Positions 40,686 through 61,630 of a stretch of 64,000 nucleotides of DNA are shown in pieces. Position 1 is the stretch's first letter, and each line of letters starts with the position of its first letter. The position numbers and the translations under genes were made by a program. The notes beneath the pieces are model-generated. The model was not told where the DNA came from. It made no database searches and saw only the letters and a list, made by a program, of their open reading frames with translations. This DNA is from a virus (taxonomy: Duplodnaviria > Heunggongvirae > Uroviricota > Caudoviricetes): IMG/VR virus record IMGVR_UViG_2576861193_000002; one strand, 5' to 3'.

Positions 40686-41404
40686 TCACCCCGCGTCACT
40701 CGTTTAATTTCGTTGTCAGCCCGCGCCTCTTCTTTGAACAATTCGGCAATGGCGTCTTCATAGAAAGCCCGGTATTTCTTCCACCATGTTGATCGGCTTA
40801 CTGGAAAAACAAGCTGATTAACCGCCTGCCGAACAAGATCTACTGGGAAACGCGAGTACCCGCGCCCGCCGCAGTGCTGGCACGTTTTGAATACTGGCAT
40901 TTCCGCAGCTTCACTGGCTGCTTTATCCGGTACTTCGCCACGGCCCTTGCACTGTTTACAATGATTGAGAACTTTTCCATGCCCCTTGCATTTTTTGCAA
41001 AGGTGTTTTTCTCCGTAGTCGTCAAACGTAAATTTATATCCGCCGCACTCCATACAAGTTTTTTCCGTAGCGGCACTCTGGCAATAATCCCGAAACGCGA
41101 AAACGGCGACAAGAATAATGAGATCATTGCGTTGTGCCTCGTCCAGTTCCATAACGTATTTATAGTCTTTTGCCATAGCCTTTAAACGCTCTATAAGCAA
41201 AACTACGGCCTTATGTTTTTCGGCTTGTGATAGTTCCATCTTTCCCAGAAAAGCGCTATAACCAAGCTCTACGCGCGATTGCGCCATACCTGCGGCAGTT
41301 AGTGCATCCGTGGTATTAAGCGCATCCGGGGATGTGCCACGGCTTTCATCTGACAAACGCGGTGATTTTGGGAAGTGGAATTTAAGAATAGATTCCAGAT
41401 TCAT
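40682..41404 (-). CDS. antitermination protein Q (zinc-binding, 82/21-type)
   Basis: 240 aa; CxxC clusters (CMECGG, CKKCKGHG, CKQCKGRG, CQHCGGRG). Confidence 0.8.
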   Translation of the reverse strand: MNLESILKFHFPKSPRLSDESRGTSPDALNTTDALTAAGMAQSRVELGYSAFLGKMELSQAEKHKAVVLLIERLKAMAKDYKYVMELDEAQRNDLIILVAVFAFRDYCQSAATEKTCMECGGYKFTFDDYGEKHLCKKCKGHGKVLNHCKQCKGRGEVPDKAASEAAEMPVFKTCQHCGGRGYSRFPVDLVRQAVNQLVFPVSRSTWWKKYRAFYEDAIAELFKEEARADNEIKRVTRGE

Positions 41405-41586
41405 TATTTGCCCCCGTAACGAGCAATAAGGCGTTTACGATCAGAAATAGACTGGACTAACTTCCTCTCAAGCTCTTTCAATGCAAGCAATTCGCGCATA
41501 TGAAAAGCCTGGATTTGTCGGACTGTAGCTAAATCATGCTCGTCGCGCTGAATATCTATTTGCAGATCTTTAATTTCGTTTTTCAT
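41404..41586 (-). CDS. small coiled-coil hypothetical protein
   Basis: 60 aa ORF between rusA and Q. Confidence 0.4.
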   Translation of the reverse strand: MKNEIKDLQIDIQRDEHDLATVRQIQAFHMRELLALKELERKLVQSISDRKRLIARYGGK

Positions 41587-41990
41587 TGCTCACCCCACAT
41601 ATTCGTCGCGTATTCGTCAATATCCGGTAGCAGATCTCCGTGTTCGCGGATCTTAATAAACAAGCGTCCGCCTTTTACCTTCCGGCAGCGAACAATTTTT
41701 ATCGAGTCGATTTGCCCGTCATCCTCCCAGAATCCGGCATAAGTAAGGCTATCAAAAAGGCATTTAGGGATATTATCCAGATCTCTGATCCGGTTATCCG
41801 GCGGCGCGGCATAAATGGCGATTGCCAGTCGGCAAGGCAGGTTAATATTTAAATTTAATAGCTCGATGATGTCTCTTACTTGTTCCCTGTATTCTTTTCC
41901 AACCTTGCTGATATGGTGAAAACCTCGCGAATGTCGGTAATAGCGGTTATTCGATGGCGGGTAAGGTAGGCTAAATGTATATTCGTTCAT
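41583..41990 (-). CDS. rusA: Holliday junction resolvase RusA
   Basis: Internal start MNEYTFSLPYPPSNNRYYRHSRG...; RusA family signature. Confidence 0.8.
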   Translation of the reverse strand: MNEYTFSLPYPPSNNRYYRHSRGFHHISKVGKEYREQVRDIIELLNLNINLPCRLAIAIYAAPPDNRIRDLDNIPKCLFDSLTYAGFWEDDGQIDSIKIVRCRKVKGGRLFIKIREHGDLLPDIDEYATNMWGEQ

Positions 41991-42003
41991 GCTGCCTTTC
42001 TCC

Positions 42004-42480
42004 TTACTTCCCGTGATTTGGATGAAAACCATATTTAATTTCAGCTTCTTGTCTCGCTTTGATTGCGTCCTCCATTCTGTCGAATCTGCCTAAACTAATA
42101 CATTTATAATTTACCCAAATTTGCGAATGCCATTTCTTGCGCTCTTTATCCCAATAAACACCAATATAACCACTGGTATTGTTTTTGTTTTTTGGTCTAT
42201 TCTTCGCGTTCTCCTTGCCTAACACCAATCTAAAATTATTAAGCCTGTTATTGCTAGGGTCGTGATCCAAATGGTCTATCTCGTACCCTTCCTGGATCGG
42301 GCCGTTGTGCATTTCCCAAATAATACGGTGAGCTTTATACCATCTACCAAAAAGCCTAACGCGTATGCGACCAGTATCATTTGGACACCCAGCAATACTA
42401 CCGGCTTTCATTCTACCGCGTGACTTTTTCCATATCAGGTTAATACCATCGTAACAAAACCATTCGTGCCAGTTCATCAT
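42004..42480 (-). CDS. HNH homing endonuclease with AP2 domain
   Basis: EIDHLDHDPSNNRLNNFRLV; inserted between ninG and rusA. Confidence 0.8.
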   Translation of the reverse strand: MMNWHEWFCYDGINLIWKKSRGRMKAGSIAGCPNDTGRIRVRLFGRWYKAHRIIWEMHNGPIQEGYEIDHLDHDPSNNRLNNFRLVLGKENAKNRPKNKNNTSGYIGVYWDKERKKWHSQIWVNYKCISLGRFDRMEDAIKARQEAEIKYGFHPNHGK

Positions 42481-42495
42481 GCAATACACCCCCAA

Positions 42496-59928: not shown

Positions 59929-60141
59929 ATGAATAGGGAATTAGATTTGACCGTGGAAGACTTAAGCACAATTGCGGAATACATGCGCGGCGACGATCCT
60001 GATCGCCCTGTTGTTATTGATATGAAAAACTTAAAAACGATTATATGTCTAGCTCAAGGCTTATTTCTCTGTGGGCGATCATGTATGCGCGGTCGCAGTG
60101 GAAAAATAGCAACGGTGTATTATGAGGCAGATAAGATTTGA
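59929..60141 (+). CDS. hypothetical small protein
   Basis: 70 aa ORF. Confidence 0.35.
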   Translation: MNRELDLTVEDLSTIAEYMRGDDPDRPVVIDMKNLKTIICLAQGLFLCGRSCMRGRSGKIATVYYEADKI

Positions 60142-60553
60142 GATAGTCAATGACGCCGTAAAAGAAAACGCTATCAGGCAGATAAGGGAGATCCAGCCTG
60201 ATAGCAAAAGCCCGCTGATAATTACCATCCAGGAGAAAACCCGCTCACTGAGTCAAAACGCGTTGCTTTGGGCACTATTGACCGACATTAGCGATCAGGT
60301 TAATTGGTACGGTAAAAAGCTATCGCCTGAAGACTGGAAGGCGGTATTCACTGCCGGGCTTAAGAAATATGGCGTTGTCCCTAATCTTGATAAATCAGGC
60401 TTTGTTGTGCTGGGAACGTCAACCAGCCGGATGAGTAAAGCAGAATTTAGCGAACTAATCGAACTGATCTACTCGTTCGGTGCTGAACATGGCGTTCAGT
60501 GGTCTGGCGATACGAAATTAAACGAGGAATTTATAAAACGCTGGGGGCAATAA
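60122..60553 (+). CDS. ninB: NinB recombination protein
   Basis: 143 aa; ...QNALLWALLTDISDQVNWYGKKL...VVPNLDKSGFVVLGTSTSRM resembles lambda NinB as recalled. Confidence 0.75.
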   Translation: MRQIRFEIVNDAVKENAIRQIREIQPDSKSPLIITIQEKTRSLSQNALLWALLTDISDQVNWYGKKLSPEDWKAVFTAGLKKYGVVPNLDKSGFVVLGTSTSRMSKAEFSELIELIYSFGAEHGVQWSGDTKLNEEFIKRWGQ

Positions 60554-60729
60554 TGGCTAGTTATTACATGGCTAAACCTACAGGCATTTTGTATAAGGTT
60601 GATGGCGAATACGTTTATTACTTTCACAACCAGGCGCGTGATTGGCGATTATGTCACGCTCACTTTCAGCACGAAATAGAAAATCACCCTGAATATTTTA
60701 TCAAAGTTGACAATGTAGCTGTGGCGTAA
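60553..60729 (+). CDS. hypothetical small protein
   Basis: 58 aa; ATG overlaps ninB stop. Confidence 0.35.
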   Translation: MASYYMAKPTGILYKVDGEYVYYFHNQARDWRLCHAHFQHEIENHPEYFIKVDNVAVA

Positions 60730-60743
60730 TTGAGGATAAGCAA

Positions 60744-61400
60744 ATGAATAAACTTAAAGCAATTGGCGTGATTAGTCATCGCGCTAACCCTGAGTGTTAC
60801 CCATCGTTTGAGGTGGCAACATGCCGCACAGAATATAATTTCGGAACATACTATTTATTAGGTATCCGTGCTGACAATGGCAGCACTTATTCGGCTATGG
60901 CTTCAGGCTGGAAATTTGAAAAATACGATGATTTATCGAATAAGGATGATGACGGCATGAATAAAGAAAGTGAAATCATTGATGAATTAATCGAAGATGA
61001 GCGGCATGATTGCGATAAGCAGAAAGTCGAGGAGTGGCAGCCAGGAGAAAGACCGCCGTTAAATGTATGGCTCGAATTTTACCCAGGGGAATTTGCCCCT
61101 ATGTACTGCGTAGCTAAATATATTTTTACTGGCGATGAGTTAGGGATCTTTGTTAGAAAGGATGGTAAACACGAAGAAACAGCCAGATGGAATGGGTTTA
61201 AATATCGCAGATGGATAGATCCAAAAGAAAAAGCACTGTCACAAATTGCGTTTGCGCTGGCTACTAAGGTGATTGGTGAAGACGCGGCAAAAGAGATTGA
61301 CTTTAACCATGACAATGATTTTTCGTGCGATTATCGCAACATGGCGCAAGCAATTATTGATGGATGTATCGTACACGTTGAATACACGGGGGAAAGATAA
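60744..61400 (+). CDS. hypothetical acidic protein
   Basis: 218 aa ORF. Confidence 0.45.
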   Translation: MNKLKAIGVISHRANPECYPSFEVATCRTEYNFGTYYLLGIRADNGSTYSAMASGWKFEKYDDLSNKDDDGMNKESEIIDELIEDERHDCDKQKVEEWQPGERPPLNVWLEFYPGEFAPMYCVAKYIFTGDELGIFVRKDGKHEETARWNGFKYRRWIDPKEKALSQIAFALATKVIGEDAAKEIDFNHDNDFSCDYRNMAQAIIDGCIVHVEYTGER

Positions 61401-61630
61401 TGGATAAGACGGCAACAATTCTTCTTAGTCGCCCTGCCATCTGCCGTATGCTGGGAGGAATTAGCAGGGGAACGTTTTATTCATGGCGTAAGAAATGGGA
61501 GAAGAACGGAACCCCGTTCCCCGACCCCGTTGATGTGCTGGGAACAGGGCGGGGCGTCATGTATCGCTATCAGGATGTAATGCGGTTCTTTGATGAGATT
61601 GGTTTGACGTCAGCCAAAGATAATACATAA
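61400..61630 (+). CDS. excisionase / AlpA-family DNA-binding protein
   Basis: 76 aa; ILLSRPAICRMLGGISRGTFYSWRKK HTH; adjacent to integrase. Confidence 0.6.
   Translation: MDKTATILLSRPAICRMLGGISRGTFYSWRKKWEKNGTPFPDPVDVLGTGRGVMYRYQDVMRFFDEIGLTSAKDNT

What the first reader, a model, noticed from the sequence alone, without database searches (positions are those of the whole stretch)
41404..61630. Module order looks like a lambda/P22-type early region with its immunity-replication block inverted
N-like, erf, ssb, ninF, ninG, rusA and Q all lie on the late-gene strand downstream of the PL-like promoter. cro-like, O-like, helicase and ninB are transcribed the other way and end at xis/int. Inverting a canonical block from ssb/erf through ninB reproduces exactly this order, and splits the nin genes (ninB on one arm, ninF/ninG/rusA on the other). 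Q would then be reached from PL under N antitermination rather than from PR.
Basis: inference. Interest (0 to 1): 0.5.

Follow-up and report, generated by a model that had tools for sequence, protein, structure and literature searches.

The report
mEp021-type prophage early region
The unusual gene order is real, but it is the normal, already published layout of a known family of E. coli gut phages (the mEp021 or "mEpimmI" group), not a rearrangement peculiar to this genome.

Summary
Pfam, PHROGs and tblastn confirm the genes and strands. Against phage P22, the shared markers Erf, repressor, O-like, DnaB and NinB are reversed in order and strand relative to NinG and Q (33-57% aa identity).

It is not an event in this genome. 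The window holds a complete 55.8-kb prophage (7132-62969) inserted in ydaM/dgcM. It is collinear end to end with coliphage mEp021: gp17 100%, cI 98%, Int 99%, Q 96% aa identity.

The same order and strands occur in:
- mEp021 and mEp554 (annotated maps), with same-strand matches in four more isolates
- 46 of 46 IMG/VR contigs
- 25 of the 30 rows shown for complete E. coli genomes
- a variant integrated at abgT
- the contig with the second most divergent gp17 (69%)

The predicted junctions share no inverted-repeat scar. The junction before ninF instead carries nutR2, one of three published nut sites used by the N-like antiterminator Gp17. Q reached from the N-side operon under antitermination is therefore essentially the published model.

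Whether one ancient inversion of a P22-like ancestor made this layout is plausible but unproven, and int orientation does not fit it.

Verdict: new member of a known kind; low interest.

The parts
7132..7140 (.). att core copy (CTGTCTGGA) at the far prophage end, after codon 17 of ydaM/dgcM
   Evidence: 9-nt direct repeat with 62961-62969. The ydaM N-terminus MITHNFNTLDLLTSPVW stops here.
62961..62969 (.). att core copy next to int; the ydaM reading frame resumes here
   Evidence: mEp021 record position 1 aligns to window 62969. Host ...VWIVSPFEEQLIYANSAAKLL follows.
61570..62784 (-). tyrosine integrase, transcribed from the att end inward
   Evidence: Pfam Phage_integrase + Arm-DNA-bind_3. 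99% aa identity to mEp021 Int.
61400..61630 (+). HTH protein in the xis position; last gene of the replication arm; 3' end overlaps int by 61 nt
   Evidence: Pfam HTH_23; PHROG 4745 'DNA binding protein'. No excisionase family was hit.
60122..60553 (+). NinB
   Evidence: Pfam NinB 1.8e-47. 53% identity to P22 NinB.
57697..59112 (+). DnaB-type replicative helicase
   Evidence: Pfam DnaB_C 1e-75. 57% identity to P22 gp12, the closest match outside the family.
56560..57678 (+). DNA repair exonuclease-like protein (372 aa)
   Evidence: PHROG 704, 5e-139.
55842..56525 (+). Rha/KilAC antirepressor-type protein
   Evidence: Pfam ANT + Phage_pRha.
53679..55760 (+). HNH endonuclease fused to a long coiled-coil-like tail (693 aa); not present in this form in mEp021
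   Evidence: Pfam HNH_3; PHROG 99. mEp021 carries a different gene at this position.
52324..53325 (+). O-like replication initiator
   Evidence: Pfam HTH_36; PHROGs for replication initiation and O-like proteins. C-terminus 33% identical to P22 gp18.
52072..52317 (+). 81-aa winged-helix protein in the cro position
   Evidence: PHROG 4617 'replication initiation protein', N-terminal domain, 8e-9. 32% identity to the N-terminus of the O-like protein.
51931..51963 (+). nutL: boxA GCTCTTTAA, spacer, boxB UCGCU-GCGA-AGCGA
   Evidence: Sequence, fold, similarity to the other nut sites. Position matches the published nutL (PMC11893012).
51808..51852 (.). Back-to-back promoter-like sites: TTGACC-16-TAAACT (plus strand, toward the cro-position gene) and TTAACA-17-TACATT (minus strand, toward cI)
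   Evidence: Consensus scan. Inference only.
51118..51765 (-). CI-type repressor (immunity I)
   Evidence: Pfam HTH_3 + Peptidase_S24. 98% identity to mEp021 Rep021, whose repressor function was shown experimentally (PMC11893012).
51095..51112 (-). Intrinsic terminator after cI (t1)
   Evidence: AGCCGCCGGATGGCGGCT followed by TTTCTTTG.
50966..50994 (-).
   Evidence: Joint best-scoring promoter-like site on the minus strand of the region scanned, 10 of 12 consensus positions.
50673..50710 (-). nutR1: boxA CGCTCATTAA, boxB GCCGC-UGGAAGU-GCGGC
   Evidence: Sequence. Similarity to nutR2 and nutL, z 6.9 and 4.5.
50326..50616 (-). gp17, N-like antiterminator with an arginine-rich motif (R17, R19, R20, R21, R24)
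   Evidence: PHROG 271. 100% identity to mEp021 Gp17. The arginine positions are those reported in PMC11893012.
49535..50176 (-). Erf recombinase
   Evidence: Pfam ERF 1e-38. 54% identity to P22 Erf.
49116..49535 (-). SSB
   Evidence: Pfam SSB 2e-22.
48551..48567 (-). Intrinsic terminator within the gp17 arm
   Evidence: GCCGCATTGCTTGCGGC followed by TTTATCT. Corresponds in position to mEp021 TERM_2.
46260..46284 (-). Intrinsic terminator within the gp17 arm
   Evidence: 11-bp stem. Corresponds in position to mEp021 TERM_3.
43461..44219 (-). DNA cytosine methyltransferase-like gene; last gene before the ninF junction
   Evidence: 98% identity to mEp021 gp33, annotated 'putative DNA cytosine methyltransferase'. 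No Pfam hit.
43413..43448 (-). Conserved 15-bp imperfect hairpin (predicted t4); its centre also reads as TGTGA-N6-TCACA
   Evidence: Consensus fold about -19 kcal/mol over 36 unique relatives; loop variable.
43378..43405 (-). Promoter-like TTGTTC-16-TATACT, resembling the promoter core on the cro side
   Evidence: 20 of 29 matches to the cro-side core; 1 of 200 shuffles did as well. TTG and TATACT are conserved and the spacer varies across relatives. Inference only.
43330..43362 (-). nutR2: boxA GCTCTTTAA, boxB GCGC-UGAAAU-GCGU
   Evidence: The first 17 nt (boxA plus part of the spacer) are identical to nutL. The closing pair varies as G.U, C-G and A-U among relatives.
43125..43301 (-). 58-aa ORF labelled NinF in mEp021
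   Evidence: PHROG 30170, unknown function. 98% identity to mEp021 gp34. No NinF family hit.
42496..43239 (-). NinG
   Evidence: Pfam NinG 2e-63. 48% identity to P22 NinG.
42004..42495 (-). HNH/AP2 homing-endonuclease-type gene inserted between ninG and rusA
   Evidence: Pfam HNH_3. Absent at this site in mEp021 and mEp554; present there in a few relatives.
41583..42032 (-). RusA Holliday-junction resolvase
   Evidence: Pfam RusA 1e-13.
40682..41404 (-). Q late-gene antiterminator of the lambda/P22 type
   Evidence: Pfam Antiterm 3e-29. 34-35% identity over the full length to lambda Q and P22 gp23.

Best explanation
The interval is the early region of a complete, intact-looking prophage of the mEp021 ('mEpimmI') family, integrated in ydaM/dgcM. 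Its layout is the fixed architecture of that family.

Two operons diverge around a CI-type repressor gene.

Arm 1 starts just downstream of cI at a strong promoter. It runs nutR1, gp17 (N-like), erf, ssb, about 20 small or accessory genes including two methylases, nutR2, a NinF-like ORF, ninG, rusA and Q, then continues into lysis and morphogenesis.

Arm 2 starts in the intergenic region between cI and the cro-position gene. It runs nutL, a small winged-helix protein, the O-like initiator, accessory genes, DnaB, NinB and an HTH protein in the xis position. It ends convergent with int.

Gp17 with the host Nus factors modifies RNA polymerase at the nut sites. Transcription then reads through the intrinsic terminators on arm 1 and reaches Q, and Q switches on the late genes.

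Basis for each step:
- Shown here: gene identities, strands, collinearity with the family, positions of nut sites and terminators.
- Taken from the literature: Gp17 antitermination at three nut sites, repressor function, integration in ydaM.
- Inferred: the promoters, and that Q depends on read-through.

Relative to P22-like lambdoid phages, which are the closest outgroup, the block from Erf to NinB is reversed. This reflects an old rearrangement or an old reassembly of modules that predates the diversification of the family. It is not a recent event.
For: - Whole-prophage collinearity with mEp021 from att to the tail genes.
- Protein identities to mEp021 of 83-100% for most core markers (lower for SSB, g148, g186 and the two HNH proteins); gp17 100%, cI 98%.
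- Matching annotated maps of mEp021 and mEp554.
- The same order and strands in 46 of 46 IMG/VR relatives.
- One same-strand match spanning the query in 25 of the 30 rows shown for complete E. coli genomes.
- The same order in a variant integrated at abgT.
- The same order around the gp17 homologue that is only 69% identical.
- att core CTGTCTGGA flanking 55.8 kb inside ydaM. PMC11893012 reports ydaM as the main integration site.
- nut sites in the sense of transcription at 50673-50710, 43330-43362 and 51931-51963, mutually similar with z 4.5-7, and covariation in the nutR2 boxB stem.
- Intrinsic terminators between the gp17 promoter and Q. Terminator-like sites number 31 against 16.9 +/- 5.2 expected on that side.
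- Reversal against P22 shown with homologous markers.
- The family is separated from the next relatives by a wide gap: DnaB 92-99% within the family against 57% in P22-like phages; Q 85% or more within the family against 36% or less elsewhere.
Against: - Nothing found contradicts family membership or the architecture.
- The regulatory steps were not tested here. The promoters are consensus matches only.
- The individual nut hairpins are too small to stand out from shuffles (z about -0.3).
- The primary antitermination paper (Arch Virol 168:92) could not be read. Its content is known only through PMC11893012.
- A promoter-like element directly upstream of nutR2 could give Q an entry independent of read-through.
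- Which arrangement is ancestral, and how the change happened, remain open.
Confidence: 0.9

Rival explanations
1. A single ancient inversion in a P22-like lambdoid ancestor created the family layout. The breakpoints would lie between xis and the distal PL genes, and between ninB and ninF.
For: - Five homologous markers are reversed in both order and strand relative to NinG and Q.
- NinB still follows the helicase, and NinG-RusA-Q still precede lysis, as expected for a break inside a nin region.
- cI remains co-directional with the N-like gene and divergent from the replication arm, as in lambda and P22.
- P22-like phages are the closest outgroup for DnaB.
Against: - There is no inverted-repeat scar at the two junctions. 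After this much divergence none would be expected, so this is weak evidence.
- Int points the opposite way to lambda and P22 and is of a different arm type (Arm-DNA-bind_3), so at least one further event is needed.
- The cro-position protein is not a Cro homologue.
- Identity to P22 varies widely between modules, 33-57%.
- No intermediate or un-inverted close relative was found.
Confidence: 0.4
2. The layout arose by modular reassembly, that is illegitimate or short-homology recombination joining modules from different phages, rather than by one inversion. The resemblance to an inverted P22 map would then be a by-product of drawing on the shared lambdoid gene pool.
For: - The family swaps modules at fixed positions. 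PMC11893012 reports four integrase types and several att sites.
- There are two alleles of the cro-position gene, about 35% against 95% identical to the window's.
- Genes between O and the exonuclease differ between relatives.
- HNH genes are inserted at several sites.
- Identity to P22 is uneven between modules.
- gp17 has no homologue below 63% identity anywhere in 5.8 billion proteins.
Against: It needs several independent joins to give what one inversion explains. The internal order within each arm is preserved relative to P22: O, DnaB, NinB on one arm and NinG, Q on the other.
Confidence: 0.35
3. The inversion is recent and specific to this genome, or is an assembly or strand-assignment artefact.
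For: None found.
Against: - The order is identical in the annotated plaque-forming isolates mEp021 and mEp554, with same-strand matches in the other isolates, and in every prophage or contig examined.
- Strands were confirmed by domain hits.
Confidence: 0.01
4. Q is not reached only by read-through from the gp17 promoter. The ninF-ninG-rusA-Q block would have its own early promoter (43378-43405) with its own nut site, a third early transcription unit paralogous to the cro-side promoter-nut cassette.
For: - A conserved hairpin, a promoter-like element and nutR2 lie in that order upstream of ninF in all 36 unique relatives. TTG and TATACT are conserved and the spacer varies.
- The promoter core resembles the cro-side core: 20 of 29 matches, reached by 1 of 200 shuffles.
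- The first 17 nt of nutR2 (boxA plus part of the spacer) are identical to nutL.
- The 13-nt motif found at the other early promoters occurs here in both orientations.
Against: - The -35 matches only 3 of 6 positions, so the site fell below the scan threshold.
- The similarity statistic is modest.
- The published model treats nutR2 as a second loading site on the same operon (PMC11893012).
- There are no transcript data.
Confidence: 0.3

Closest known systems
mEpimmI phages (mEp021, mEp010, mEp013, mEp044, mEp515, mEp554; PMC11893012)
   Same: - Whole-genome collinearity.
- gp17 100%, cI 98%, Int 99%, DnaB 99% and Q 96% aa identity to mEp021.
- Integration in the 5' part of ydaM.
- Three nut sites at the published positions.
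- The same split of early genes into a gp17-erf-ssb-...-ninG-rusA-Q arm and an O-DnaB-NinB arm.
   Different: - Early-region DNA is only about 90% identical over about 78% of its length to the best isolate. No complete E. coli genome is closer.
- An HNH/AP2 gene lies between ninG and rusA.
- A 693-aa HNH/coiled-coil gene replaces mEp021 gp12.
- Several small accessory genes and the distal tail-tip gene differ.
P22-like lambdoid phages (Lederbergvirus) and lambda
   Same: - Homologous early proteins: Erf 54%, C2/cI 40%, gp18 C-terminus 33%, gp12/DnaB 57%, NinB 53%, NinG 48%, gp23/Q 34% (35% to lambda Q).
- The repressor is co-directional with an N-type antiterminator and flanked by divergent early promoters with boxA/boxB nut sites.
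- A Q-type late switch.
   Different: - The Erf-to-NinB block is reversed relative to NinG-Q-late. The replication genes run toward int, and N, the recombination genes and Q share one operon.
- Three nut sites rather than two.
- Int is transcribed away from att and has a different arm-binding domain.
- No Cro, cII or cIII homologues were recognised.
- About 2.7 kb of small ORFs lie between Q and the terminator before the holin gene.
- PMC11893012 reports no DNA hybridisation with lambda and no viable hybrids.

Membership tests
mEpimmI (mEp021-like) phages | Immunity-I CI-type repressor (Rep021) with HTH and S24 domains | tested here: met
   Pfam HTH_3 + Peptidase_S24. 98% aa identity to mEp021 gp15. 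91-99% identity to the IMG/VR relatives.
mEpimmI (mEp021-like) phages | Gp17 N-like antiterminator with conserved arginines at positions 17, 19, 20 and 24 | tested here: met
   The 96-aa protein is 100% identical to mEp021 Gp17. R17, R19, R20, R21 and R24 can be read in the translation. PHROG 271 hit.
mEpimmI (mEp021-like) phages | Three nut sites: nutR1 upstream of gp17, nutR2 downstream of the methylase genes, nutL on the side of cI away from gp17 | tested here: met
   boxA/boxB elements at 50673-50710(-), 43330-43362(-) and 51931-51963(+). Their function was not tested here.
mEpimmI (mEp021-like) phages | Synteny of the core genome | tested here: met
   blastn collinearity with mEp021 over 1-53336 of 54655 nt, all on one strand and in order.
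mEpimmI (mEp021-like) phages | Type I integrase with insertion in the 5' region of ydaM | tested here: met
   Int is 99% identical to that of mEp021. The att core CTGTCTGGA splits ydaM after codon 17.
mEpimmI (mEp021-like) phages | Nus-dependent growth and immunity to other group members | not testable with these tools
   This needs infection assays.
Lambdoid phages (lambda/P22 type) | Canonical module order int-xis-recombination-N-cI-cro-replication-nin-Q-lysis-late | tested here: not met
   The Erf-cI-O-DnaB-NinB block is reversed relative to NinG-Q.
Lambdoid phages (lambda/P22 type) | N-type and Q-type antitermination | tested here: met
   N-like PHROG hit and nut sites. Pfam Antiterm Q with 34-35% identity to lambda and P22 Q. 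This rests on homology and on the literature, not on an assay.
Lambdoid phages (lambda/P22 type) | Ability to form viable hybrids with lambda | not testable with these tools
   PMC11893012 reports that the group yields no viable progeny in co-infection with lambda and does not hybridise to lambda DNA.

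The most novel reading that the evidence does not exclude
The mEpimmI early region descends from a P22-like ancestor by one large inversion. Under this reading the cassette at the junction before ninF is a compensatory copy of the cro-side regulatory cassette. That cassette comprises a hairpin, a promoter-like element with the family's 13-nt motif, and nutR2, whose first 17 nt (boxA plus part of the spacer) are identical to nutL. The 13-nt motif CCATTTTGTAWAC, enriched about six-fold in the window (26 of 27 hits lie inside the prophage) and not mentioned in the family paper read here, would be the still undefined operator or promoter element of the family.
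Probability: 0.2. Interest if true: 0.4.

Novelty: new member of a known kind. Interest (0 to 1): 0.2.

Why it matters
The result settles what the element is: one more mEp021-type prophage, a group reported to be as common as lambdoid phages in human faecal isolates.

It also adds a point not found in the family paper I could read (the stem 'inver' does not occur in it). These 'non-lambdoid' phages share a homologous early gene set with P22 (33-57% aa identity), arranged as a reversed block.

That framing gives a concrete reason to ask two questions. Does the reversed block contribute to their genetic isolation from lambdoid phages? Does the third nut site exist because Q was separated from the replication-side operon?

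None of this changes current understanding of phage regulation.

Tried and rejected
- Inverted-repeat scars at the two predicted junctions. Local alignment of 43240-43470 against 60500-61650 in both orientations did no better than shuffles. The long-range inverted repeats that do exist are the nut sites and a 17-nt motif copy.
- Klebsiella phages Sin4, IME328 and SH-KP2492, as possible relatives with the same layout. At the DNA level they matched only within the exonuclease gene. Sin4 is a T1-like virulent phage.
- Distant gp17 homologues, to trace the architecture beyond the family. None exists below 63% identity, and every source-named hit is from E. coli, the rest being unnamed metagenome or Logan records.
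- Distant NinG loci in IMG/VR. One has O-like, DnaB and NinG co-directional (the canonical order), one has NinB then NinG, and two have Erf upstream of NinG on the same strand. None is close enough to be an intermediate.
- Rfam and tRNA scans. Nothing was found inside the prophage.
- Reading the TGTGA-N6-TCACA element upstream of ninF as a CRP site. The same bases form a conserved hairpin, and the data do not separate the two readings.
- The primary antitermination paper (PMID 36795170) is not held in the library.

Full report
**What is in the interval**

ORF listing and domain searches give a continuous run of minus-strand genes:
- repressor 51118-51765
- N-like gp17 50326-50616
- Erf 49535-50176
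- SSB 49116-49535
- about twenty small or accessory genes, including a Dam-like and a Dcm-like methylase
- a 58-aa ORF, 43125-43301
- NinG 42496-43239
- an HNH/AP2 gene, 42004-42495
- RusA 41583-42032
- a 60-aa ORF
- Q 40682-41404

The plus strand carries:
- an 81-aa winged-helix ORF, 52072-52317
- an O-like initiator, 52324-53325
- a 693-aa HNH/coiled-coil protein
- a Rha/KilAC protein
- an exonuclease-like protein
- DnaB 57697-59112
- three small ORFs
- NinB 60122-60553
- two more ORFs
- an HTH protein, 61400-61630

The 3' end of that last gene overlaps the 3' end of the minus-strand integrase gene (61570-62784) by 61 nt.

Three labels rest on position only. 'ninF' hits only PHROGs of unknown function. 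'cro-like' is a paralogue of the N-terminal domain of the O-like protein. 'xis' is an HTH protein with no excisionase match. Q ends exactly at the stated start coordinate and so lies just outside the interval.

**What the element is**

Megablast of the interval against phage records finds six isolates from one collection (mEp554, mEp044, mEp010, mEp515, mEp013, mEp021) plus phage MagusPhagus. Identity is about 86-91% over 44-78% of the query. There is essentially nothing else.

The annotated maps of mEp554 and mEp021 show the same genes in the same order and on the same strands.

blastn of the whole mEp021 genome against the window is collinear on one strand. mEp021 position 1 aligns to window 62969, and position 53336 to window 9171.

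Marker proteins are 83-100% identical for most of the core. Key values are gp17 100%, cI 98%, Int 99%, DnaB 99% and Q 96%. SSB (68%), g148 (79%), g186 (36%) and the two HNH proteins are lower.

A 9-nt direct repeat, CTGTCTGGA, lies at 7132-7140 and 62961-62969. It splits ydaM/dgcM after codon 17. The window therefore holds a complete 55.8-kb prophage.

PMC11893012 describes this group as 'mEpimmI'. It covers 48 genomes with high synteny. Most integrate in the 5' part of ydaM. The group has a CI-like repressor with demonstrated function, and an N-like antiterminator Gp17 acting at nutR1, nutR2 and nutL.

**Is the order shared?**

Yes, everywhere I looked.
- Using NinG as an anchor with 10-kb flanks, 46 close relatives were found in IMG/VR. 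All 46 show (O-like-, cro-position gene-) | cI+ gp17+ Erf+ SSB+ ... Dam+ ... NinF-like+ NinG+ RusA+ Q+.
- In complete E. coli genomes, 39 records match. Of the 30 rows shown, 25 cover 70-79% of the query as a single place on one strand.
- One of the two rows with partial coverage (strain E21845, inserted at abgT with a different integrase) has the same annotated layout.
- gp17 has only 52 homologue clusters among 5.8 billion proteins, at 63-97% identity. Every hit that a source names is from E. coli; the others are unnamed metagenome or Logan records.
- The contig carrying a 69%-identical gp17, the second most divergent full-length one, again reads cI, gp17, Erf, SSB..., Dam..., NinG, RusA on one strand, with two genes diverging from cI.

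**Comparison with P22**

The P22 record gives the canonical order int, xis, ea genes, abc, erf..., 24, c2 | cro, c1, 18, 12, ninA-ninZ, 23, lysis.

| Protein in the window | P22 counterpart | aa identity | Strand in P22 |
|---|---|---|---|
| Erf | Erf | 54% | - |
| cI | C2 | 40% | - |
| O-like (C-terminus) | gp18 | 33% | + |
| DnaB | gp12 | 57% | + |
| NinB | NinB | 53% | + |
| NinG | NinG | 48% | + |
| Q | gp23 | 34% | + |

(tblastn)

Read in the sense of Q, the prophage gives NinB-, DnaB-, O-, cI+, Erf+, NinG+, Q+. The five markers from Erf to NinB are thus reversed in both order and strand. The formal statement 'an inverted Erf-to-NinB block' is correct.

P22-like phages are also the nearest non-family source of DnaB. 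They stand at 57%, against 92-99% within the family. Q is about 35% identical to lambda, HK97 and P22 Q, against 85% or more within the family. Any rearrangement is therefore old relative to the spread of the family.

A single inversion does not account for int. Here int is transcribed away from att and carries an Arm-DNA-bind_3 domain.

**Scars**

The long-range inverted repeats in the region link the ninF-upstream spacer to the flanks of cI instead. One is a 37-nt repeat, 43326-43362 against 51931-51967. The other is a perfect 17-mer, 43377-43393 against 50994-51010.

The first is the pair nutR2 and nutL. They share GCTCTTTAAAAATCCGG followed by a short stem-loop. nutR1 at 50673-50710 is a third, more divergent copy. 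The pairwise z values are 7.0, 6.9 and 4.5.

In 36 unique relatives the closing pair of the nutR2 stem appears as G.U, C-G or A-U.

**How it most likely works**

- A strong promoter-like site, TTGACT-17-TATATT, lies at 50994-50966. It follows the cI terminator (51112-51095) and precedes nutR1 and gp17.
- Back-to-back promoter-like sites lie at 51808-51852, between cI and the cro-position gene, with nutL downstream.
- On the gp17 arm, terminator-like sites are over-represented: 31 against 16.9 +/- 5.2 expected. Strong ones lie at 48567-48551 and 46284-46260, between the promoter and Q.
- With the published evidence that Gp17 antiterminates at these nut sites, the simplest model is as follows. 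Gp17-modified polymerase reads from the gp17 promoter to Q. nutR2 acts as a second loading point just before the NinF-like ORF, ninG, rusA and Q.
- Q is of the lambda type. About 2.7 kb downstream, a terminator at 37889-37871 directly precedes a gene that starts at about 37845 and corresponds in position to the holin gene of mEp021. A promoter-like site at 38005-37978 lies upstream of that terminator. mEp021 has a terminator at the corresponding position (TERM_5); PMC11893012 lists a t5 among the experimentally shown terminators, which I take to be the same one.
- The replication arm has few terminator-like sites (12 against 12.6 expected). It ends antisense to int.

**A detail at the ninF junction**

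The 160-nt spacer upstream of the NinF-like ORF is conserved in all relatives and contains, in order:
- a 15-bp imperfect hairpin with a variable loop (consensus fold about -19 kcal/mol), whose centre also reads TGTGA-N6-TCACA
- TTGTTC-16-TATACT, with conserved TTG and TATACT and a variable spacer
- nutR2

The promoter-like core matches the cro-side core at 20 of 29 positions. One of 200 shuffles did as well.

The 13-nt motif CCATTTTGTAWAC occurs 27 times in the window (up to 2 mismatches), against 4.5 +/- 2.0 expected. Of these, 26 lie inside the prophage. The copies sit next to or over the early promoters and in front of several late-region genes. Nine of the eleven best copies (up to 1 mismatch) have a counterpart at the corresponding position in mEp021. 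In 38-42 of 42 relatives the three early-region sites are present, whichever allele of the cro-position gene is carried.

This could be the undefined operator or a promoter element. It leaves open whether the nin-Q block has its own early promoter. I rate that at about 0.3.

**Verdict**

The architecture, the N-like system and the integration site are published. This prophage is a new member of that family. Interest is low.

Noticed in passing
window 9489-60596, best copies at 18574, 20193, 24039/24068, 43379/43447, 46871, 50996, 51839, 57668: The 13-nt motif CCATTTTGTAWAC occurs 27 times (up to 2 mismatches) against 4.5 +/- 2.0 expected, and 26 of the hits lie inside the prophage. It often occurs in pairs 29-30 nt apart, direct or inverted, at early promoters and ahead of late-region genes. 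Nine of the eleven best copies (up to 1 mismatch) have a counterpart at the corresponding position in mEp021, and the early-region sites are conserved in 38-42 of 42 relatives. It may be the undefined operator or a promoter element of the family.
   Followed up: partly
window 43302-43460 (minus sense): The spacer before the NinF-like ORF holds a conserved 15-bp hairpin whose centre reads TGTGA-N6-TCACA (CRP-like; arms conserved, centre variable). A promoter-like TTGTTC-16-TATACT and then nutR2 follow. The hairpin reading and the CRP-site reading could not be separated.
   Followed up: partly
window 52072-52317 (+): The gene in the cro position is not a Cro-family protein. It is a stand-alone copy of the winged-helix N-terminal domain of the adjacent O-like initiator (32% identity, E 2e-7). 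The family carries two alleles of it, only about 35% identical to each other, while cI stays 91-99% identical.
   Followed up: partly
window 61570-61630: int and the last gene of the replication arm are convergent and overlap by 61 nt, as in mEp021. Antiterminated transcription from the replication arm would therefore run antisense through int.
   Followed up: no
window 42004-42495 (-) and 53679-55760 (+): Two HNH-endonuclease genes are absent at these positions in mEp021 and mEp554. One lies between ninG and rusA, a site also occupied by HNH genes in a few relatives. The other is a 693-aa fusion of HNH to a long coiled-coil-like tail, in the replication arm.
   Followed up: partly
window 37871-38005 (-): A promoter-like site and a strong terminator sit immediately upstream of a gene starting at about 37845 that corresponds in position to the holin gene of mEp021. 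This resembles the P22 P-late/t-late pair, but lies about 2.7 kb and eight small ORFs downstream of Q instead of directly after it.
   Followed up: no
window 7089-7140 and 62966-64000: The prophage interrupts the diguanylate cyclase gene ydaM/dgcM after codon 17, which separates the rest of the gene from its start codon and promoter.
   Followed up: partly
window 1150-1328 (-) and 5638-5755 (-): The host flank contains the RalA antitoxin sRNA (Rac prophage) and the FnrS sRNA, as expected for the E. coli chromosome next to ydaM.
   Followed up: no
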